From Candidatus Collierbacteria bacterium UBA2277 (GTDB lineage Bacteria; Patescibacteriota; Microgenomatia; UBA1400; MFAQ01), in NCBI GenBank assembly GCA_002347045.1, contig DDWV01000001.1, forward strand, positions 33,553-97,552: DNA of 64,000 nt. The letters run 5' to 3'. Within the stretch, counting starts at the first letter, position 1; every line of letters begins with the position of its first letter. Under the pieces are notes generated by a model, which was not told the origin of the DNA, did not search any database, and saw nothing but the letters and a program-made list of their open reading frames with translations. A program made the position numbers and the translations under genes. Positions 3,001 through 62,556 of the stretch are shown here, piece after piece.

Positions 3001-6000
3001 CGGGGTAACCTATGCATCGGGGAATGCTGATCTGGCTGAGTGGACTGAGGTCTCCGGAGGCCCGGTGGCCGGAGATATTATTGCAGCAAAGGCGTCAGGT
3101 AATACAAAAGCAGTGACTGGGGACTTGATTTTGGGAGTGGTGACCGACACCGCGGCATTTATTGGAAATGAGACGGGAGACCTTACAGGAAAAGAAATCG
3201 TTGGAATGCTTGGCAGGGTTAGTACAAAAGTATCCAATGAAAATGGAGATATCGCTATAGGGGACCCGATTGCTCCAAGCTCTGTAGCCGGAGTGGGTAT
3301 GAAACAGACGAAAGCTGGGCCAACGATCGGAAAAGCGTTGGCGGCAAAAACAGGCGCTACTGTGGAGAGAGTTGAAGTTCAGGTGGTACCGGGATGGTAT
3401 GATCCTGATCCACTGTTGTCGCCGGCTGCCTTTACTGTGAGCGGGACAGATATTTTACAAAGTGGTGAGGTTGTGACTCGAGCAGGCGGATTCCAAGATT
3501 TAAAGATTAAAGACATTACCGTGGCCAACTCGCTAACGTTACCAAACGGTTCAATCTTAAATGCAAATTTGGCTAATTCGAGTTTAACAGTAACAGCAGG
3601 AACAGGATTGTCAGGAGGTGGTTTGGTGTCTCTTGGAGGAACAACTTCATTATCTTTACCTGGTGTGGGAATTGCAGGAACTTATGGAAGTGCATTATCA
3701 ATTCCAGTTTTAACTACTGATGTACAAGGAAGAGTGACTGGAGTTACGGCGACGACTATTTCAGGAATAACAAATTCTCATTTATCTGGGACTGCCGGAA
3801 TTACCGATGCAAACTTGGCAACGATTACAACGGCCAGTAAAGTATCCGGGTCGGCAGTTCAGTTGAATGCAAATGGAGGAATTACAAACAATACCGGATT
3901 ATCACTTTTAACTTCTTGTGCAAGTGGTGAGGTTTTGAAATGGAATGGATCTGCTTGGGCATGTGCCATTGACAACTCAGGGGGGTCACCATCCTTTGAT
4001 TTAATTGCTTCAGGAACTAATACGACTGCCACAATGACTGTAGGTACAGGAGGAACGCTCACTTTCTCAGGAAGTGGTGTAGTGAATGCCTCCACCCTTG
4101 GAGGTGCCACTTTTGCAGCTCCCGGCAGTATCGGCTCAACAACACCAGGCACCGGGGCGTTTACGACACTCTCTGCCAGCTCAACTCTGACTGCATCAAA
4201 TGGATTGACGATGACGACGGGTGCTTTGAGTCTGACTTCTACGTCAGGAGCGATCTCGTCCACCGGATTAACTGGACTGACACAAACATTATCGTCCGGA
4301 ACTGCGGCTATTACCGCGCCAACACTTAACTTAAATGCGTCTTCTACAGGAAATACTGTCATTGGAAACGGAACAGGAACGTTTGCTTTGGCATCAAGTG
4401 GAGGATTGAACGTAACAACCGGTGGTGCACTGACAGGAGTGGCTTCGATCGACACCATAGGGGTAACGGCAACCGGACTTACATTCGCGGGAGCAGGAAC
4501 AATCGTAACAAGCACAACATCAGCGTTGACTTTGGATTCGGGAACGACCGGAGCTGTAAATATTGGAACAGGGGCGAATGCTAAGACAGTGACTCTGGGA
4601 ACAACAAATACTACTTCAACTACAAATATCCAGTCCGGAACAGGAAATATAAACTTTACGGTTGGACCTACTTCTTCTTCCGGAAAGGTACAAATAGGGA
4701 ATAGTGGAACAGCGACACCTGATTTATTGGTGCTGGACAATGGTACTGCCGATCCTACCGGCGTAAACGGGGCGACATATTACAACACGTCGACAAATAA
4801 ATTTAGATGCTTTGAAAATAGCACCTGGAAAGATTGCGATACGACGGGTTCGGGGGGACCGGCAAAGAGTGCAGCAATTGTCGACAGTACCAGTGATACA
4901 TTGACAGGAACTGAGGCTGAGCTGCTGGATGGAACAGCCCCGGCAATCACCCCGTCGTCTACAAGTAATAGAATTTTAATTAATGGTTCGATAAGAGTAA
5001 GGACTACGGTTCGAACTCAACAGACGAATACTTTTAGAATAAGGAGAGGATCGGGTAGTTGCGCTGGTACTCAAGTTGATGGAGATTTGATACTTATAAC
5101 TAAGGAAAGCCATGCAGCGGGCGTCCCCTTTGATAGTTATGTGAGCTTTAGTTTGATTGATGCGCCATCTACCACCTCTTCACAAGCATATACCGTCTGT
5201 GGTTTGTTCTCAGGCGGAACTGCAAATACCACACCATATATCTCAATGACAATAATTGAAGTGGCGGCGACAGGCGCCGACTTGGCTGAGATTTACTCGA
5301 GTAATGATGAAACATTGGCTCCGGGAGATGTGGTGAGTCTTGATTCTTCATTGGAAGCCGGAGTAAAAAAGAGCAGTGTGGCCTACGACAAACAAGTTCT
5401 CGGAATTGTATCTACTAATCCTGGAATGACGATTGGTAGTATCGGTGAAGGGGACACTAAAGCTGTGCCGGTAGCTCTTTCTGGTAGGGTGCCGGTGAGA
5501 GTATCGACAGAAAATGGAGCGATTATGGCAGGTGATTACCTGACTACTTCATCAACTCCGGGTGTCGCCATGAAAGCAACTAAAGCGGGATCAATTATCG
5601 GAACAGCAATGTCAGCATTTGATGGTGACTATGTCGGACAAGTACTGGTATTTGTCAAGAGTGGCAATAGCACTGGTGTAAGTTTGGTGGAGGTTATGAA
5701 GGGACTCGATTTGACAAGTGTTTCGTATAACTCCGATGTGCTATATAACTTGATATTAAATAAAGAGCAGGTAGCGACAGGCTCAACCAATACTTCAGAA
5801 ATAATGACGGATAGGGTAGTGGCCGGGTTGGAAATTATTACTCCGAGAGTCACGACTCAAGACTTACTGGTAAGTGAGAACGCGACCTTCTCGGGAATCC
5901 TGTATGCAGATACGATTAAGGCCAGAAGAATTGAGGGAGTAGATATTCTGACCAAGAAACTGAGTCTACTTACTGATCAGGTGGCCGGGGTCGCCACGGC

Positions 6001-6594: not shown

Positions 6595-7287
6595 ATGGAT
6601 AAAAGAAAAGTTATTTTGGCTGTGTTAATAGTAATAGTGTTCGGAGGTGTGGGTAGTTTGATAAAACTGACTAGAGATAACAAACAACTTAGATCTGAGA
6701 TACAGGGTTTGAAGGAAGATCCATACAAAATTGCAAAAGAGGAGACGGCAAATATTGTGGCTTTGGTCGGTAAGCTGGTGATTTTGCCTGAAGGAGAAGA
6801 GCCTGTCTTGGCAACCGTAACAGACAAAGAAAAGCTTAAAGATCAGCCAGTATTTGCCAAAGCGGAAAACGGAGACAAGATACTGATTTATTCGATTGCC
6901 CAAAAAGCGTATATTTATAATCCTACAAAAAATGTAATTGTGGATGTGGTTTCGGTAAACATTGGAGAAGAGAATATTGTCATTACGGGTGTCGATAAAA
7001 ATAACCCCTTAAAGATTGCACTGATAAATGGTAGTAAGACTGTTGGATTGACAAATATTTTTGAAGATAATCTTAATGAAAAGAAAATAATGGGCTTGTC
7101 AGTGGTGTTAAAAGCAAATGCAAAAAAAGATGATTATACAAAGACTCAAGTGTTTGACTTGTCTGGGAAATGGAGTGTACAAGCAAAAGAGATTGCTCAG
7201 ATGGTTGGGGGAGAAGTAATAACAGAGACAGAAGAAGATAAGCCAAATGCTGATTTATTGATAATTGTAGGAGAAAATTTTATGTAA
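6595..7287 (+). CDS. Hypothetical membrane-anchored/secreted protein (N-terminal TM helix)
   Basis: 230-aa ORF with N-terminal hydrophobic segment VILAVLIVIVFGGVGSLI. Its stop codon TAA lies inside the start of repeat copy A. Confidence 0.5.
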   Translation: MDKRKVILAVLIVIVFGGVGSLIKLTRDNKQLRSEIQGLKEDPYKIAKEETANIVALVGKLVILPEGEEPVLATVTDKEKLKDQPVFAKAENGDKILIYSIAQKAYIYNPTKNVIVDVVSVNIGEENIVITGVDKNNPLKIALINGSKTVGLTNIFEDNLNEKKIMGLSVVLKANAKKDDYTKTQVFDLSGKWSVQAKEIAQMVGGEVITETEEDKPNADLLIIVGENFM

Positions 7288-7390
7288 GAGCTTGCTCGTA
7301 TTTTTAGCTTAACTTCGTTATGTGTCTAAAAAATACTTGCGCTTCCTCTTATACTGAAACCCCATAATTACTTTGTCATTATGTGGATTG
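7284..7390 (+). repeat. Dispersed structured intergenic repeat, copy A (type 1)
   Basis: Motifs GTAAGAGCTTGCTCG, long hairpin GTATTTTTAG..CTAAAAAATAC enclosing TAAC-TTCG-GTTA, then CTTGCGCTTCCTCTTATACTGAAACCCCATAATTACTTTGTCATTATGTGG. Near-identical to copy C. Confidence 0.75.
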
Positions 7391-7427
7391 GTATAAATTG
7401 AGGCTATTGATGGTAAAATACTATGGT

Positions 7428-7501
7428 GCCACCTTAGCTCAGTTGGTTAGAGCACCTGTTTTGTAAACAGGATGTCCTGAGTTCGAATCTCAGAGGTGGC
7501 T
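7428..7501 (+). tRNA. tRNA-Thr (anticodon TGT)
   Basis: Hand-folded cloverleaf: acceptor GCCACCT/AGGTGGC, D-arm GCTC..GAGC, anticodon stem CCTGT/ACAGG with loop TTTGTAA, T-arm CTGAG-TTCGAAT-CTCAG. CCA not encoded. Confidence 0.85.
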
Positions 7502-7543
7502 CAGTAGTCTGATGTTTTTAGGAAGGATGGTAGGTTCTGTTTT

Positions 7544-7652
7544 GTAAGAGCTTGCTCGTCCTTCTTTCAATAATGGGCTATTATTGAAATGGCCTCCTGC
7601 GCTTCCTCTTATATCATGCGCCGATAATCACTTCGTCATTATCGTCTGGATA
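7544..7652 (+). repeat. Dispersed structured intergenic repeat, copy B (type 2)
   Basis: GTAAGAGCTTGCTCG; perfect 10-bp hairpin TTTCAATAAT-GGGCT-ATTATTGAAA; CTGCGCTTCCTCTTATA; hairpin CGATAATCACTTCGTCATTATCG. Similar to copies D and E. Confidence 0.75.
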
Positions 7653-7691
7653 TAAACAGGATGTCCTGAGTTCGAATCTCAGAGGTGGCTC
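7653..7691 (+). repeat. 39-nt exact duplicate of the 3' half of tRNA-Thr(TGT) (direct repeat of 7464-7502), att-like
   Basis: TAAACAGGATGTCCTGAGTTCGAATCTCAGAGGTGGCTC is identical at 7464-7502 and 7653-7691, bracketing repeat copy B. Confidence 0.85.
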
Positions 7692-7696
7692 TAAAT

Positions 7697-8242
7697 ATGA
7701 ATTTTTCAAAAGTATTGCCCGGCGACAGAATTATATACTCCGAAAAAACTGGAATTAGGCGAATTAGGGTGAATGATGTGGAGGAAATGAGACGCATGAG
7801 AATCATAGAAGATGATCCGGAGGTGTGTAAGTTTGTAGAGGATCTTCAGGCTACGGAGGAGGGACTTCGAAATTTTGCGAAGGGGAGTAGTGAGTCTGTA
7901 GTATTGGGAGTAATACAGGGAGGTGAGGTTCAGGGATGGATTTGCTTGTATCCGGATGAGTCGGAAAGACTGACTAGACTAGGATTGGCAGAAGATGCTG
8001 TAGAGATATGTTATGCCAAGTACCCTGGTGCCCCGAGAGGGCTCATGAGTAGTGGACTGAGACAAGTAATTGAGATGATAGTTGGCGAGACCTTCACTGC
8101 CTACACTGATCCAGATAATTTAAATTCTTCCAGACTACTTGAAGCGGTAGGATTTAAAAATGCCGGGAAGATTAAATATCACCCAGGCGCCAAGACACTG
8201 GACAACTTTTGGATTTTGAATAATAGCCCACTGATTTGCTGA
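7697..8242 (+). CDS. GNAT-family N-acetyltransferase-like protein (tentative)
   Basis: ORF 7685..8242 begins at GTG; first ATG is at 7697. The C-terminal region (AYTDPDNLNSSRLLEAVGF) resembles the GNAT acetyl-CoA-binding core. Weak assignment. Confidence 0.45.
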   Translation: MNFSKVLPGDRIIYSEKTGIRRIRVNDVEEMRRMRIIEDDPEVCKFVEDLQATEEGLRNFAKGSSESVVLGVIQGGEVQGWICLYPDESERLTRLGLAEDAVEICYAKYPGAPRGLMSSGLRQVIEMIVGETFTAYTDPDNLNSSRLLEAVGFKNAGKIKYHPGAKTLDNFWILNNSPLIC

Positions 8243-8453: not shown

Positions 8454-8536
8454 GCCAAGGTGGTAGAGTGGTCAAATACTCGGGTCTGTAAAACCCGCGG
8501 CGCAAGCCTACACAAGTTCGAATCTTGTCCTTGGCA
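8454..8536 (+). tRNA. tRNA-Tyr (anticodon GTA), long variable arm
   Basis: Acceptor GCCAAGG/CCTTGGC, anticodon stem CGGGT/ACCCG with loop CTGTAAA, variable arm CGGCGCAAGCC, T-arm ACAAG-TTCGAAT-CTTGT. Confidence 0.85.
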
Positions 8537-8608
8537 CTCACAATTTTAGGACAATCTTCTCACAAGTTCTCCCCGGAGTACCGAGGATTTCTACCTTACA
8601 GGTAGTCA

Positions 8609-8631
8609 GAATCTTGTCCTTGGCACTCACA
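8609..8631 (+). repeat. 23-nt exact duplicate of tRNA-Tyr 3' end (copy of 8520-8542)
   Basis: GAATCTTGTCCTTGGCACTCACA is identical to the tRNA-Tyr 3' terminus plus 6 nt of trailer. Confidence 0.85.
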
Positions 8632-8653
8632 TTTAATCTCGGAGTGTGTTTTT

Positions 8654-8760
8654 GTAACAGCTTGCTCGATTTTTCATCATAACTTTGGTTATGTAAATGA
8701 AAAATCTTGCGCTTCCTGTTATTCTGAAACCCCATAATTACTTTGTCATTATGTGGTTGG
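8654..8760 (+). repeat. Dispersed structured intergenic repeat, copy C (type 1)
   Basis: GTAACAGCTTGCTCG; compound hairpin GATTTTTCAT-CATAAC-TTTG-GTTATG-TAA-ATGAAAAATC; CTTGCGCTTCCTGTTATTCTGAAACCCCATAATTACTTTGTCATTATGTGG. Confidence 0.75.
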
Positions 8761-8765
8761 AATCA

Positions 8766-8783
8766 GAATCTTGTCCTTGGCAC
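8766..8783 (+). repeat. 18-nt duplicate of tRNA-Tyr 3' end (third copy)
   Basis: GAATCTTGTCCTTGGCAC; with preceding TCA it forms a 21-nt direct repeat with 8606-8626, bracketing copy C. Confidence 0.8.
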
Positions 8784-52670: not shown

Positions 52671-52772
52671 TATAAGAGCTTGCTCGTTTTCTTTTCAATA
52701 TTTGATTATCGAAATATTCAAACTGCGCTTCCTCTTATAATCGCTCATAACTTCGTTATGATGCTTGATTAT
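52671..52772 (+). repeat. Dispersed structured intergenic repeat, copy E (type 2)
   Basis: TATAAGAGCTTGCTCG; AT-rich hairpin AATATTT-GATTATCG-AAATATT; CTGCGCTTCCTCTTATAATCGCTCATAACTTCGTTATGATGCTTGATTAT. Lies upstream of rpsF. Confidence 0.75.
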
Positions 52773-52826
52773 TAAAAGAACCAAAAAAAGGTGAGAAAAA
52801 CAAAGACAACCGAAACAAAACCGTCC

Positions 52827-60272: not shown

Positions 60273-61575
60273 TACTCGGATTCCACCTCATGCAGATGAG
60301 GCTGAAAAATCAATTTTGGGTGCAATCTTGATCGACAAGGATGCAATAGTAGATATTGCTGTTCTTTTGAGACCTGAGATGTTTTATAACGGAAACAATG
60401 GGGAGATTTTTAATGCTATGGTATCTCTGTATGAGAATCGAGATCCTATTGACGTTCTTACTGTGGCAGACTGGCTAAAGAAAGAAAAGCAGTTGGACAA
60501 GGTGGGTGGTAGGACATATTTGTCAGAGCTTTCAAATGTTGTTCCGGTTGCTTCTCATGTAGCAAAGTACGGCCAGATTGTGCGAGAAACATATATAAAG
60601 CGACAGCTTATCTCAGCAGGTGCTGTTATGGGAGAGATGGGGTTTGATGAAAGTAAACCGTTAGGTGAGATACTGGATAAAGCTGAACAGGCAATTTATT
60701 CCCTGTCACAAACGCATGTTAAAAAGTCTTTTGTTCCTGTAAAAGATGCTTTGGCCGAAAGTTTTGATCGTTTGGACTCCTTGCAAAATACTCCAGACGG
60801 ACTAAGAGGTTTACCTACGGGTTTTGCAGATTTAGATAAGATGTTGGCCGGAATGCAGGACAGTAATTTACTCATATTAGCTGCTCGTCCTGGTATAGGA
60901 AAAACAACCCTTGCTACAAATATTGCCCAGTATGCTGCTGTTGAGAAAAAACTTCCTGTGGGATATTTTGCTTTGGAAATGAGTAACTTGGAAATGGTAG
61001 ATAGAATGTTGGTGTCTCAGTCAAATATTGATGCATGGAAATTAAAAACGGGAAACTTGAAGGATGATGATTTTGCTAGATTGTCTGAAGGAATGGGAGT
61101 TTTGGCTGAGTCACCTTTGTATATCGATGATACCCCTGGTCAGTCTATTCTTGAGCTTAGAACAAAAGCTCGTCGTTTGCATTCTCAGGTAGGATTGAAG
61201 CTTTTGGTGGTTGATTACTTGCAGCTTTGTGTGGGTGACAAGAACTATGAGAGCAGAGTTCAAGAAGTGGGTGCCATATCTCAGGGATTGAAGAACCTGG
61301 CTCGTGAGCTGCGAATTCCAGTATTGGCGCTTTCACAGTTGAATCGTGGAGTTGAAAATAGAACGGACAAGACACCTGTGCTTGCTGATTTACGTGAGTC
61401 GGGCAGTATTGAGCAGGACGCAGATGTTGTTATGTTTCTTTATCGAAACGATGACGCGGTTTTGGAGGATGTTAAGTTGGCTATTGCAAAACATCGTAAT
61501 GGTGGACTGGGAACAATTGATCTTAAGTTTCGTGGTGATAGGGTTAAGTTTTATGGTGTGGATAGGGGAAGGTAA
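60265..61575 (+). CDS. dnaB: Replicative DNA helicase DnaB
   Basis: N-terminal primase-interaction domain (PPHADEAEKSILGAIL), Walker A ARPGIGKTT, Walker B LLVVDYLQL, arginine finger region; no intein; 436 aa. Confidence 0.85.
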   Translation: MPNTRIPPHADEAEKSILGAILIDKDAIVDIAVLLRPEMFYNGNNGEIFNAMVSLYENRDPIDVLTVADWLKKEKQLDKVGGRTYLSELSNVVPVASHVAKYGQIVRETYIKRQLISAGAVMGEMGFDESKPLGEILDKAEQAIYSLSQTHVKKSFVPVKDALAESFDRLDSLQNTPDGLRGLPTGFADLDKMLAGMQDSNLLILAARPGIGKTTLATNIAQYAAVEKKLPVGYFALEMSNLEMVDRMLVSQSNIDAWKLKTGNLKDDDFARLSEGMGVLAESPLYIDDTPGQSILELRTKARRLHSQVGLKLLVVDYLQLCVGDKNYESRVQEVGAISQGLKNLARELRIPVLALSQLNRGVENRTDKTPVLADLRESGSIEQDADVVMFLYRNDDAVLEDVKLAIAKHRNGGLGTIDLKFRGDRVKFYGVDRGR

Positions 61576-61680
61576 GAGCTTTCTCGATATTTCATCATAC
61601 CTACGTTATGTATCTGAAAAATTTTGTGCTTCCTCCTCTAATACTGAAGCCCCACTGATTCTTTACACATAGCTGTGCAC
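61572..61680 (+). repeat. Dispersed structured intergenic repeat, copy F (type 1, divergent)
   Basis: GTAAGAGCTTTCTCG begins at the dnaB stop codon; CATCATACCTACGTTATG; TGTGCTTCCTCCTCTAATACTGAAGCCCCACTGATTCTTTACACATAGCTG. Confidence 0.65.
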
Positions 61681-61773: not shown

Positions 61774-62013
61774 ATGATGTTTCTTGATGTTTTAAACTTA
61801 GTTATGGCTGTTACCTTTATTCTTTATGCCACCTCGGGACATGATCAGAGTGGCATAGTTAAAGAATTTGCCGATATTGGTATGATCCTTTCTCTGATAA
61901 TGATTTGTATTATTAGGGTATCATATTGGCCATTTATGGCCTGGAGTACATTATTGGTAGGCGAGGTAATTTACCTCGCTTATAAAATAATTATACGTAA
62001 TAAGAAAAAATAG
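61774..62013 (+). CDS. Small 2-TM membrane protein, hypothetical
   Basis: 79 aa; strong SD GGAGGAG 6 nt upstream. Confidence 0.45.
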   Translation: MMFLDVLNLVMAVTFILYATSGHDQSGIVKEFADIGMILSLIMICIIRVSYWPFMAWSTLLVGEVIYLAYKIIIRNKKK

Positions 62014-62042
62014 GTAGTTAAAAAGTTTTTTTAACCCATTTC

Positions 62043-62325
62043 AAATGAAGTGGGTTATTTTATGCCGAGAGAGGGGATGCGATTCCCTGCCTCACCAGGT
62101 TCGTTAGGAAACTGGTTCGCCTGTTCGATCCCCTCATGCTTGTCAAAACAAATAGCCCTCCATAAAGGAGGACTATTTTTTTAGTGCCGAGAGAGGGGAT
62201 CGCCATTCAGTAACTATTTGCTAATAGTTCTTCATGGCCTGCCTCGTTGTCAGCCACACCTCCGGCTTTCGATCCCCATTTATGACAAAAAAATATACGT
62301 CCACAAGGGACGTATATTCTTATTG
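62043..62325. repeat. Two tandem ~141-bp units, each beginning with the 3'-terminal 17-20 nt of tRNA-Leu (minus-strand sense); att-like tRNA-end array
   Basis: TGCCGAGAGAGGGGAT(CG) recurs at 62043, 62184 and 62326 (the real tRNA 3' end) with 141/142-bp period. Each unit also contains a TTCGATCCCC block. Confidence 0.7.
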
Positions 62326-62408
62326 TGCCGAGAGAGGGGATCGAACCCTCACGGCCTTGCGACCACAGGTTTTTGAGACCTGAGCGTATACCATTCCGCC
62401 ATCTCGGC
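62326..62408 (-). tRNA. tRNA-Leu (anticodon CAA), long variable arm
   Basis: Minus strand: GCCGAGATGGCGGAATGGTA..., anticodon stem CAGGT/ACCTG with loop CTCAAAA, variable arm TGGTCGCAAGGCCGTG, T-arm GAGGG-TTCGATC-CCCTC, acceptor 3' strand TCTCGGC + A. Confidence 0.8.
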
Positions 62409-62436
62409 ATTACTAAGTTATATTTTATCTCACTAA

Positions 62437-62492
62437 GGTCTTGCGACCACAGGTTTTTTAGCCTTAAGTGTTTACCATTCTGCCATCTTGGC
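62437..62492 (-). pseudogene. Truncated tRNA-Leu(TAA)-like 5' fragment (acceptor, D-arm, anticodon region, variable arm) lacking T-arm and 3' acceptor strand
   Basis: Minus strand GCCAAGATGGCAGAATGGTAAACACTTAAGGCTAAAAAACCTGTGGTCGCAAGACC is ~80% identical to the 5' two-thirds of the adjacent tRNA-Leu; no TTCGA T-loop follows. Confidence 0.6.
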
Positions 62493-62556
62493 ATGACTAA
62501 GACTATATTTTACATTAAATCGCTTTGTTGAGGGTGGAATGGAGTAGAATATAGGA

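What the first reader, a model, noticed from the sequence alone, without database searches (positions are those of the whole stretch)
62043..62492. tRNA-Leu locus: tandem 141-bp units each starting with the tRNA 3' terminus, plus a truncated tRNA-Leu(TAA)-like 5' half
The minus-strand tRNA-Leu(CAA) 3' end (plus-strand TGCCGAGAGAGGGGATCG) is repeated at 62043, 62184 and 62326 with a strict 141/142-bp period. Each upstream unit also carries a TTCGATCCCC block. On the other side of the intact tRNA lies a 56-nt tRNA-Leu(TAA)-like 5' portion with no T-arm or 3' acceptor strand. This is a second, independent hotspot of tRNA-end duplication in the window. It looks like stacked att-site remnants, or a gene conversion/replacement in which an incoming element supplied a new tRNA-Leu 3' part.
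Basis: seen in the sequence. Interest (0 to 1): 0.6.

Follow-up and report, generated by a model that had tools for sequence, protein, structure and literature searches.

The report
Structured repeats built on tRNA ends
The repeated tRNA-Leu ends are the closing segments of two copies of an apparently undescribed small folded element that sits behind many tRNA genes in Microgenomates (CPR) bacteria, each copy carrying a duplicate of its neighbouring tRNA's 3' end.

Summary
The 16-mer TGCCGAGAGAGGGGAT (the tRNA-Leu(CAA) 3' end) occurs exactly three times, at 62063, 62185 and 62326. The spacing is 122 and 141 nt, not a strict 141. The two extra copies are not bare att scars. Each is the 3' strand of the closing helix, plus a tail, of a 65-95-nt element ("E"). 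E lies on the tRNA strand and follows a terminator hairpin.

E is a conserved family. A covariance model finds 48 copies in 393 kb of Collierbacteria/Microgenomates DNA and none in 459 kb from other phyla. Copies lie 41-58 nt downstream of tRNAs with 17 different anticodons. Both arms change with the neighbouring tRNA's T-arm, and the internal helices covary strongly. I found no Rfam family, paper, viral contig or nearby integrase.

A relative (L101) carries the same two modules in swapped order, with the same distal terminator.

The "Leu(TAA) 5' half" is a decaying 84-nt tandem duplicate of the CAA gene's 5' part and promoter. Its anticodon position reads AAA.

Best reading: a small non-autonomous module (tRNA 3' end + terminator + folded element) that recombines at the T-loop-to-3'-end repeat. 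The main rival is a host RNA made from tRNA trailers. This is likely a new element class, and its mechanism is unresolved.

The parts
62326..62408 (-). Intact tRNA-Leu(CAA) gene; CCA not encoded
   Evidence: ARAGORN; Rfam tRNA 58.3 bits
62285..62318 (-). Terminator-like hairpin 'B' (AATATACGTCC CTTGT GGACGTATATT) followed by a T-run on the minus strand. It travels with E copy 2.
   Evidence: Inverted repeat I3; terminator scan; module B+E2+fragment is 90% identical in L101
62185..62279 (-). E copy 2 (long form). Left arm is 62268-62279. It has the P2 helix, a variant hairpin 1, and helix P3 with a tandem G.A motif. Right arm is a copy of tRNA positions ~56-65 (62193-62202). The free tail is a copy of the acceptor 3' strand plus discriminator (62185-62192).
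   Evidence: Covariance model R1 39.7 bits, E 2.8e-08, minus strand only; fold z-score -2.4; exact 19-nt repeat of the tRNA 3' end
62152..62176 (-). Terminator-like hairpin 'C' (ATAGTCCTCC TTTAT GGAGGGCTAT), followed on the minus strand by TTTGTTTT and the TTGACAA motif (62140-62146). It travels with E copy 1.
   Evidence: (I1, D2); homologous to hairpin 'A' of L101, with a paired change in the stem
62063..62135 (-). E copy 1 (short form, no P3). Left arm GAGGGGATCGAAC is 62123-62135. It has P2 and hairpin 1 with tip UCCUAACGA. Right arm plus tail is a copy of the tRNA 3' end (62063-62080).
   Evidence: R1 50.2 bits, E 5e-11; antisense strand scores only 10 bits; fold z-score -2.55; exact repeat
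62032..62057 (.). Distal bidirectional terminator 'T3'. It is probably the resident tRNA-Leu terminator and is shared with the plus-strand 79-aa ORF (61774-62013).
   Evidence: (I7); an 80%-identical terminator sits at the distal end of the L101 array although the module order differs
62437..62512 (-). Decaying tandem duplicate of the first ~56 nt of tRNA-Leu(CAA) (62437-62492) together with its upstream promoter region
   Evidence: TRF period 84, 1.9 copies; D1 85% identity; not called as a tRNA; fold no better than shuffles, z -0.56

Best explanation
SHOWN. The two extra tRNA-Leu 3' ends belong to two copies of a conserved 65-95-nt element ('E'), one from each of two subfamilies. E folds on the tRNA-sense strand.
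- A left arm, complementary to tRNA positions 54-65, pairs with a duplicated copy of positions ~57-65 to form helix P1.
- P1 encloses a 3-bp helix P2, a conserved GGA/GA purine loop and a hairpin with tip UCGUAACGA.
- In long forms it also encloses a third helix containing a tandem G.A motif.
- The duplicated acceptor 3' strand plus discriminator trails as a single strand.
- Each E is preceded by its own terminator hairpin and a TTGNCAA motif.
- The family sits 41-58 nt behind tRNAs of at least 11 amino-acid identities in Microgenomates. Its arms always match the local tRNA.

INFERRED. The unit that moves or multiplies is the module [tRNA 3' end from the T-loop + terminator + E].
- A crossover within the ~19-nt repeat (T-loop to 3' end) places a module directly behind the tRNA body.
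- The tRNA then uses the module's 3' end and terminator, and the older 3' end and resident terminator are pushed distally.
- Recombination between the repeats also duplicates, deletes and reorders modules.
- The active form is a folded single strand (read-through RNA or ssDNA).
- The left arm may act as a guide for the T-loop/T-stem of the tRNA or its gene.
- No enzyme has been identified. The element is non-autonomous and dispensable.
For: Exact triplicate of the 3' end.

Family membership:
- The metagenome pattern scan returned 43 loci, of which 38 are genuine.
- The covariance model gives 48 hits below E 1e-5 in 393 kb of related DNA. It gives 0 hits in 459 kb from other phyla.
- Scores are strand-specific: 50 and 40 bits on the tRNA strand against 10 bits antisense.

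Association with tRNAs:
- 33 of 43 armed copies have a same-strand tRNA 41-58 nt upstream. Second units lie 143-189 nt away.
- The repeat starts 16-22 nt before the tRNA 3' end.
- 38 of 43 copies are preceded by a hairpin plus T-run.

Structure:
- 89.9% of cells are paired against 73.1% in shuffles. There are 152 cells changed on both sides against 51.6 (0/500). Slid controls give 28-49%.
- On an unbiased MAFFT alignment, P2 plus hairpin 1 give 91.3% against 81.4% and 46 against 14.3 (0/500). One P2 pair shows all four Watson-Crick types: GC10, CG7, AU5, UA4.
- The conserved GA/GA and GGA/GA purine motifs exist only on the tRNA-sense strand.

Module behaviour:
- Window order is tRNA|B-E2-f|C-E1-f|T3. 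L101 order is tRNA|A-E1-f|B-E2-f|T3.
- B+E2+f is 90% identical between them, C/A+E1+f 84% and T3 80%.
- The upstream terminator therefore travels with E, and the resident terminator stays distal.

Copy-number and presence variation:
- L018 and L125 carry identical tandem units.
- Among 22 relatives in which the Leu(CAA) gene was called, copy number is 0, 1 or 2. Truncated remnants occur in L007 and L021.
- Different subfamilies are stacked at one tRNA.
Against: - No recombinase, reverse transcriptase or other mobility gene lies near any copy. There are no viral-contig hits.
- Copies at different tRNAs within one genome (L103) are strongly diverged. Copies at the same tRNA in different genomes share a subfamily, for example Tyr in L090/L097 and Leu(TAG) in L086/L093. 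That looks like old, vertically inherited elements under purifying selection on structure. It fits a host-useful RNA at least as well as an active mobile element.
- How a left arm matching each different tRNA arises is unexplained.
- A terminator directly upstream argues against efficient transcription of E.
- GU versus AC counts do not discriminate the strands overall (19 against 21). They do only in P2 plus P3 (8 against 1).
- The P1 register and P3 boundaries in alignment A3 were chosen by me to maximise pairing.
- The swapped module order can also arise from an E1-E2-E1 ancestor by deletions.
Confidence: 0.5

Rival explanations
1. Host-functional RNA. E is part of the tRNA transcription unit, a structured 3' trailer made by terminator read-through. 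Its built-in copy of the tRNA 3' end, half sequestered in P1 and half free, serves a tRNA-specific role. Possible roles are a pseudo-substrate or decoy for 3'-end processing or CCA-adding enzymes or for tRNA-targeting nucleases, or a sensor or sponge that pairs with the cognate tRNA (left arm with positions 54-65, tail with positions 1-7). Copy-number changes are then only unequal crossing-over.
For: - Same strand and near-constant spacing behind tRNAs; each fragment is usually followed by its own terminator.
- Strong compensatory evolution among old paralogues and between orthologous copies.
- Sense-strand-specific G.A motifs and conserved loops.
- The fragment is kept identical to the tRNA (L006/L009/L018 share TCCCGGCA; L016 shares GAGC).
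- In L103 all four tRNA transcription-unit ends carry one.
- The left arm conserves GAA, complementary to T54-T55-C56 of the real tRNA, although its own right arm lacks TTC.
- Precedent from my knowledge: the 3'ETS of leuZ in E. coli is a functional sRNA sponge.
Against: - E is absent from about half of the close relatives at the same tRNA, and it decays to remnants in L007 and L021.
- Two different subfamilies are stacked at one tRNA, and their order is swapped in a relative.
- A strong terminator lies between the tRNA and E, and no promoter-like -10 is present (sequence).
- Armless copies occur in inverted orientation and behind protein genes.
- In L016 the left arm did not follow the tRNA change, so P1 pairing is not strictly maintained.
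Confidence: 0.3
2. Decayed tandem tRNA gene duplicates invaded by mini-insertions. tRNA genes here duplicate in tandem, as the 84-nt duplicate shows. Small hairpin elements (E, M, U and GC-rich palindromes) insert into loop positions of the redundant copies. Deletion then removes the rest of the pseudogene.
For: - An 84-nt tandem duplicate lies at the same locus.
- L008 has an almost complete upstream pseudo-tRNA-Leu with E inside its T-loop (TTC|E|GATC).
- Pseudo-fragments carry inserts at the D-loop, at 31/32, in the T-loop and at 65/66.
- In the window, tRNA-Thr is followed by a degenerate copy with the M element in its anticodon loop.
Against: - The left boundary of E units is highly regular (terminator, TTGNCAA, left arm) in 38 of 43 copies. 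There is no residual variable-arm or anticodon-arm sequence, which random decay does not predict.
- The left arm is the complement of the whole T-loop (GATCGAA), not the T-stem 5' strand followed by TTC.
- Terminators travel with E.
Confidence: 0.12
3. Classical stacked att remnants. Successive large integrative elements entered tRNA-Leu through an integrase, and their interiors were later deleted, leaving attR scars.
For: The direct repeat runs from the T-loop to the 3' end, which is typical of integrase identity blocks (my knowledge: Williams 2002). Variable small ORFs lie distal to the array in several relatives.
Against: - The interior is a conserved structured element found behind 17 different tRNA anticodons, not random leftovers.
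- No integrase homologue is found in any locus.
- Independent deletions would not give the same 65-95-nt architecture every time.
Confidence: 0.06

Closest known systems
Integrase-mediated integration into tRNA genes and tandem island arrays (attL/attR direct repeats starting in the T-loop or anticodon loop)
   Same: The direct repeat begins in the T-loop and runs to the tRNA 3' end or beyond. The tRNA is restored and the old 3' end is displaced. Units are stacked. A sister element (M) is linked to repeats that start in the anticodon loop.
   Different: The units are 122-151 nt with no genes, and no integrase is nearby. The interior is a covarying single-strand fold. The inverted copy of the core lies 60-90 nt away from the repeat, not next to the overlap region.
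Folded single-strand recombination sites (integron attC; CTX-phage attP used by XerCD)
   Same: An imperfect hairpin of 60-140 nt whose structure rather than sequence is conserved in the stem. It occurs in arrays. The stem reproduces the duplex sequence of the target site.
   Different: E has conserved loop sequences and internal helices. The stem sequence changes with each target tRNA. There is no intI or dif context, and the R''/R' AAC..GTT boxes are not intact.
Bacterial MITE/REP-type structured repeats (Correia, ERIC, RUP, REP/BIME)
   Same: Small and non-coding, located behind terminators or genes, with inverted-repeat ends that fold into a long hairpin. Copy number is variable.
   Different: The 'terminal inverted repeats' are derived from the neighbouring tRNA and differ at every site. 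One end is an 18-20-nt direct copy of the target. Copies within a genome are highly diverged yet keep compensatory pairing.
Functional tRNA trailers (3' external transcribed spacer of leuZ acting as an sRNA sponge in E. coli)
   Same: Non-tRNA sequence downstream of a tRNA gene with a possible RNA-level role.
   Different: E lies beyond a terminator, contains a copy of the tRNA's own 3' end, is a multi-helix fold, and occurs behind most tRNA types.
Archaeal split or intron-containing tRNA genes (bulge-helix-bulge introns at non-canonical positions)
   Same: Inserts sit at loop positions (D-loop, 31/32, T-loop, 65/66). The insert's 5' end pairs with the downstream tRNA segment.
   Different: The inserts are in non-functional partial copies beside an intact gene. 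No bulge-helix-bulge motif is evident. These are bacteria, which are not known to have the splicing endonuclease.

Membership tests
Functional tRNA gene (for 62437-62492) | Complete cloverleaf with T-arm and 3' acceptor strand, detected by tRNA finders | tested here: not met
   Not called by ARAGORN or by Rfam tRNA at E<=10. The fold is no better than shuffles. The D and anticodon stems are broken by substitutions (sequence).
tRNA-Leu(TAA) derivative (for 62437-62492) | Anticodon TAA and a variable arm like Leu(TAA) genes of the lineage | tested here: not met
   The loop CUAAAAA puts AAA at positions 34-36. The variable arm equals that of the CAA gene. The segment is 85% identical to the CAA gene plus its upstream region as an 84-nt tandem copy.
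Tandem repeat array with 141-bp period | Constant period and alignable units | tested here: not met
   Spacing is 122 and 141 nt. The units are 59% identical. TRF reports no array at 62043-62330.
Integrase att duplication at a tRNA gene | Direct repeat made of the tRNA 3' part, starting in the T-loop or anticodon loop | tested here: met
   The repeat starts 16-22 nt before the 3' end in 33 of 33 copies that have a called tRNA. The window has 16-19-nt exact repeats.
Integrase att duplication at a tRNA gene | Integrated element with an integrase or cargo genes between the repeats | tested here: not met
   There are 122-141 nt between repeats and no plausible gene; the only ORFs listed there (44-52 aa, and a 95-aa one over the tRNA itself) overlap the structured RNA features. 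tblastn with the genome's tyrosine recombinase finds no homologue in any E-bearing locus.
Integrase att duplication at a tRNA gene | Core-type inverted repeat immediately flanking the crossover region in attR | tested here: not met
   The inverted copy (left arm) is separated from the repeat by the 45-75-nt body of E.
Structured RNA/ssDNA motif | Helices supported by compensatory changes beyond controls | tested here: met
   0 of 500 shuffles reach the observed values, and the slid controls collapse. RNAalifold on the naive alignment recovers only the hairpin-1 stem.
Structured RNA motif | Evidence that it is transcribed | not testable with these tools
   No transcriptome data are available. 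A terminator lies upstream and no promoter-like -10 is present.
Any Rfam family (including hammerhead, twister, pistol, YrlA, tmRNA) | Covariance-model match | tested here: not met
   No match overlaps an E core at E<=10 in the window locus beyond two weak ones (E 2.4 and 7.3) to the terminator-driven Phe_leader and sX4 models. None overlaps one at E<=1 in 8 other loci.
Bacterial MITE | Element-borne terminal inverted repeats, short target-site duplication and near-identical dispersed copies | tested here: not met
   The arms differ at every tRNA and match the target. The duplication is 16-37 nt of the tRNA end. Copies within a genome are diverged (L103).
Integron attC | R''/R' boxes (RYYYAAC ... 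GTTRRRY) and an intI-linked array | tested here: inconclusive
   The left arm ends in ..CGAAC in the Leu copies but in GAAT/GAAA elsewhere. The right arm lacks GTT. intI was not searched for.

The most novel reading that the evidence does not exclude
E, together with its sister elements M and U, is the cis-acting part of a new kind of tRNA-directed mobile system in CPR bacteria. A folded single strand (RNA or ssDNA) uses a target-complementary arm to find the T-loop/T-stem (or anticodon loop) of a tRNA or its gene. It inserts there while rebuilding the tRNA end. This would be guide-directed, structure-aware insertion without a linked recombinase gene. Alternatively, E is a family of tRNA-specific riboregulators, one per tRNA, each reading its own tRNA.
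Probability: 0.25. Interest if true: 0.9.

Novelty: new variant of a known kind. Interest (0 to 1): 0.7.

Why it matters
If this is real, Microgenomates carry a conserved, covarying nucleic-acid fold behind many of their tRNA genes, and half of its closing helix is a copy of that tRNA's own 3' end. Such a fold is either a new type of tRNA-targeting selfish element with target-matched arms, or a new class of tRNA-linked RNA in organisms with minimal genomes.

Either reading bears on three things:
- how tRNA genes serve as recombination sites;
- how reduced CPR genomes tolerate or use repeats;
- annotation, because these fragments can be mistaken for att scars, genomic-island borders or tRNA pseudogenes.

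The work also yields a concrete covariance model. That model can be run over complete Patescibacteria genomes to find the partner enzyme by phylogenetic profiling.

Tried and rejected
- Tandem Repeats Finder on the region finds only the 84-nt duplicate and no 141-nt array.
- Rfam at permissive thresholds was run on the locus, on eight other E loci and on the Thr/Tyr region. Only tRNAs and terminator-driven noise came back.
- The viral-contig scan with the E core pattern gave 0 hits.
- tblastn with the genome's tyrosine recombinase against all fetched loci found only the housekeeping gene itself.
- Near-identical contigs from other samples (L001-L004) show no polymorphism at the locus.
- RNAalifold on a naive MAFFT alignment recovered only hairpin 1, so I built a parsed alignment and checked P2 and hairpin 1 on the naive one.
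- By-eye resemblances were considered and dropped:
  - Hammerhead (GAUGA...GAA): C3, U4 and A15.1 are absent and there is no Rfam hit.
  - K-turn or box C/D: there is no 3-nt bulge. The motif is a tandem G.A inside a continuous helix.
  - Group I intron remnants: the Patescibacteria tRNA-intron paper PMC13011429 concerns position 35/36 and never mentions the T-loop or T-arm.
  - TIGR arrays: seen only in a search list; not tested.
  - TnpB/IscB-type guide RNAs: the guide-like end is half sequestered and no nuclease gene is nearby.
  - Retroviral-type primer-binding site: the fragment is on the same strand as the tRNA.
- The TTGNCAA motif was considered as a -35 box. No -10 follows it on either strand.
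- Six literature searches, including exact sequence strings, found no description.
Full report
**Observation**

ARAGORN and Rfam find one tRNA-Leu(CAA) at 62326-62408 on the minus strand. The plus-strand 16-mer TGCCGAGAGAGGGGAT, which is the complement of the tRNA's last 16 nt, occurs exactly three times, at 62063, 62185 and 62326. Shuffles expect 0.38 matches even with three mismatches allowed.

The two units are only 59% identical, and Tandem Repeats Finder sees no array there. The TTCGATCCCC blocks are real (62124, 62268).

On the other side of the gene, TRF and the repeat finder show an 84-nt tandem duplication, 62353-62417 versus 62437-62501 at 85% identity. The "5' half" is therefore a copy of the CAA gene's first ~56 nt plus its upstream region.

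- It has 9 substitutions, mostly G:C to A:T, and they break the D and anticodon stems.
- Its loop reads CUAAAAA, which puts AAA at the anticodon.
- Its variable arm is that of the CAA gene.
- It is not called as a tRNA.

**Anatomy on the tRNA strand**

Read 5' to 3' on the minus strand, the locus is:

1. pseudo-5' copy
2. tRNA-Leu
3. hairpin B plus T-run
4. unit 2
5. hairpin C plus T-run
6. unit 1
7. hairpin T3

Each unit starts with (G)AGGGGATCGAA, the complement of the T-loop plus T-stem 3' strand. Each ends with CGATCCCCTCTCTCGGCA, a copy of the tRNA from the T-loop to the discriminator. The two ends pair, and both units fold better than shuffles (z about -2.5).

**Relatives**

The window is identical to contigs from several samples, including a 647-kb contig. 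EF-P relatives identify the organism as a Candidatus Collierbacteria bacterium (Microgenomates, CPR) and give 23 related loci.

tRNA-Leu(CAA) lies next to efp in almost all of them, but in either orientation and 50-2100 nt away. Many carry extra 3' ends downstream and extra 5' parts upstream.

The sequence between a terminator and each extra 3' end is conserved between species and shows visibly compensatory hairpins.

**A family behind many tRNAs**

A degenerate pattern from the element's core (hairpin-1 tip plus GAGNCNGG, none of it tRNA-derived) found 43 metagenome loci. Five of them are chance hits in unrelated GC-rich contigs.

In the genuine loci the element ("E") follows tRNAs of many identities: Leu (four anticodons), Val, Tyr, His, Arg, Ser, Glu, Gln, Pro, Gly and Thr. 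Both of its arms change with the local tRNA's T-arm.

Of 43 armed copies:

- 33 have a same-strand tRNA 41-58 nt upstream. Second units in tandem lie 143-189 nt away.
- The repeat begins 16-22 nt before the tRNA 3' end.
- 38 are preceded by a hairpin plus T-run.
- The other 10 lie mostly at contig edges or are distal units.

In L103, all four tRNA transcription-unit ends within 10 kb carry an E.

**Structure**

Parsing 29 copies gives this architecture:

- P1: left arm paired with right arm, 6-12 bp.
- A GAA(N) junction.
- P2: 3 bp, gNC/GN'C.
- A GGA/GA purine loop.
- Hairpin 1, with tip UCG-UAA-CGA.
- One nucleotide.
- P3: an outer 3-4 bp, a tandem G.A, then an A/U-rich hairpin whose loop is often CAGCAG.
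- The right arm.
- A free tail made of the acceptor 3' strand plus discriminator, with CCA where the gene encodes it.

Short forms, such as window unit 1, lack P3. Window unit 2 has a variant hairpin 1.

Pair counts on the parsed alignment:

| Measure | Observed | Shuffled | Shuffles reaching observed |
|---|---|---|---|
| Cells paired | 89.9% | 73.1% | 0/500 |
| Cells changed on both sides | 152 | 51.6 | 0/500 |

Controls with partners slid by 1-3 columns give 28-49% paired.

I chose the P1 register and the P3 boundaries to maximise pairing, so I repeated the count for P2 and hairpin 1 on the untouched MAFFT alignment:

| Measure | Observed | Shuffled | Shuffles reaching observed |
|---|---|---|---|
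| Cells paired | 91.3% | 81.4% | 0/500 |
| Cells changed on both sides | 46 | 14.3 | 0/500 |

The middle P2 pair shows GC10, CG7, AU5 and UA4.

Other structure results:

- RNAalifold on the naive alignment recovers only the hairpin-1 stem.
- GU and AC counts are equal overall (19 against 21) and favour the tRNA-sense strand only in P2 plus P3 (8 against 1).
- The conserved GA/GA and GGA/GA motifs are sense-strand features.
- A covariance model built from the alignment finds 48 copies below E 1e-5 in 393 kb of related DNA. It finds none in 459 kb from other phyla.
- In the window it finds only the two units, at 50 and 40 bits on the tRNA strand against 10 bits antisense.

**How the units behave**

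- L101, a relative of the window organism, has the same two module types in the opposite order.

  | Genome | Order |
  |---|---|
  | Window | tRNA, B-E2-fragment, C-E1-fragment, T3 |
  | L101 | tRNA, A-E1-fragment, B-E2-fragment, T3 |

  Identities between the two are 90% (B+E2+fragment), 84% (C/A+E1+fragment) and 80% (T3). Hairpins A and C are homologous, with a paired change in the stem. So the terminator upstream of an E travels with it, and T3 behaves as the resident terminator that stays distal.
- L018 and L125 have identical tandem units.
- L113 has two units flanked by a repeat that includes a whole terminator.
- Among 22 relatives in which the Leu(CAA) gene was called, E is present 0, 1 or 2 times. 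In L007 and L021 it is truncated to a left arm plus a few bases.
- In L016 the tRNA's T-loop changed from GATC to GAGC. The fragment followed but the left arm did not. The fragment is therefore homogenised with the gene.
- Within one genome, copies at different tRNAs are diverged (L103) or mosaic (L099). Copies at the same tRNA in different genomes share a subfamily (Tyr in L090/L097; Leu(TAG) in L086/L093) and differ by compensatory changes.

**Interpretation**

Shown:

- The repeated tRNA ends are integral parts of a conserved, structured, strand-specific element family tied to tRNA 3' flanks.
- The family is not in Rfam 15. It was not found in viral contigs or in six literature searches.

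Inferred, at about 0.5:

- The unit that multiplies is [tRNA 3' end + terminator + E].
- It recombines within the T-loop-to-3'-end repeat.
- A module placed next to the tRNA body supplies the gene's 3' end and terminator and pushes older ones distally.
- Recombination between repeats also duplicates, deletes and reorders modules.

The repeat boundaries match the classical T-loop sublocation of integrases. The sister element M is linked to repeats that start in the anticodon loop.

The idea does not hold as "remnants of islands". There are no genes between the repeats and no integrase, and the interior is a covarying fold.

Two things remain unexplained:

- How a left arm matching each tRNA arises.
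- Why the left arm conserves GAA, complementary to T54-T55-C56 of the real tRNA, when its own partner lacks TTC. This hints that the arm may recognise the tRNA or its gene.

Rivals:

- Host RNA made from tRNA trailers (about 0.3). Old, orthologous, structurally constrained copies favour it. Patchy presence, stacking of subfamilies, an upstream terminator and inverted armless copies argue against it.
- Loop-targeted mini-insertions into decaying tandem tRNA duplicates (about 0.12). L008's upstream pseudo-tRNA with E in its T-loop favours it. The very regular left boundary argues against it.

**Verdict**

What is there appears to be a new tRNA-linked structured element family with an unresolved mechanism. 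Interest is about 0.7.

Noticed in passing
window 7428-7691: tRNA-Thr(TGT) (7428-7502) is followed by a degenerate partial copy, an 'M' element (7544-7653) and then a 38-nt exact copy of the tRNA from the anticodon loop to the 3' end (7654-7691). The repeat starts in the anticodon loop rather than the T-loop.
   Followed up: partly
window 8454-8783: tRNA-Tyr (8454-8537) is followed by a miniature E-like unit. Its left arm AGGACAATCTTC (8548-8559) pairs with a copy of the Tyr 3' end (8608-8626), and the fold has z -2.1. After an M element (8654-8763) there is a third copy of the 3' end (8765-8783). Model R1 does not detect this unit.
   Followed up: partly
window 7284-7392, 7544-7653, 8654-8763, 52672-52775, 61572-61680; also L008, L027, L092:10530-10645: 'M' is a ~110-nt repeat (GTAAGAGCTTGCTCG ... 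CTGCGCTTCCTCTTATA ... hairpin), and all five window copies are on the plus strand. It folds with a closing helix GUAAGAG/CUCUUAU, which becomes GUAACAG/CUGUUAU in one copy (a compensatory change). It lies after protein-gene stops or between a tRNA and an anticodon-loop-to-3' fragment. It has no Rfam match.
   Followed up: partly
L009, L015, L016, L017, L018, L020 (upstream of tRNA-Leu(CAA)): Upstream partial copies of tRNA positions 1-31 carry a second conserved insert, 'U' (UGAGCC..GGCGAARUG..hairpin..GGGCG), followed by the anticodon-loop sequence CUCAAAAAC. UUGAGC pairs with GCUCAA, which extends the anticodon stem. Each unit keeps a promoter-like TAAAAT.
   Followed up: partly
L016:3330-3380 and 3660-3690; L090 near 3120-3160; L103 near 4900-4940 and 8190-8225: Small GC-rich palindromic inserts (e.g. 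CTGCCTGCCGG...CCGGCAGGCAGG, CGCCACAGGCGGGCAGGCC) interrupt tRNA fragments. They sit between the T-stem and the acceptor strand, or in the D-loop. They look like a third mini-repeat family.
   Followed up: no
L091:5300-5365, L092:10696-10793, L085, L105/L106, L110: 'Armless' E variants lack tRNA-matched arms. In L091 and L092 they lie in inverted orientation directly behind tRNA-Arg(CCG) or between two copies of its 3' two-thirds. In L105/L106 and L110 they follow protein-gene terminators.
   Followed up: partly
L005-L027 (efp loci of relatives): The tRNA-Leu(CAA) gene next to efp is on either strand (10 plus, 12 minus including the window) and at very different distances. Different small ORFs with their own promoters lie distal to the array. 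This makes it a variable hotspot.
   Followed up: no
L094:1330-1700 and L109:12450-12780: Upstream of these two E copies no tRNA is called. Instead there is a long conserved GC-rich structured-looking stretch. It may be an intron-containing tRNA (the copied 3' end resembles tRNA-Gln) or another RNA.
   Followed up: no
window 1-64000: GC skew is very strong and uniformly positive on the plus strand (0.09-0.40 per 2 kb). This suggests the whole window lies on one replichore.
   Followed up: no
window 62140-62146 and 62282-62288; the same position in most E copies: A near-palindromic TTGNCAA motif lies between the terminator's T-run and the left arm in most copies. It is also present where the terminator is missing (L023), and as a solo remnant after the last fragment in L006. 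Its role is unknown, and no -10 box follows it.
   Followed up: partly
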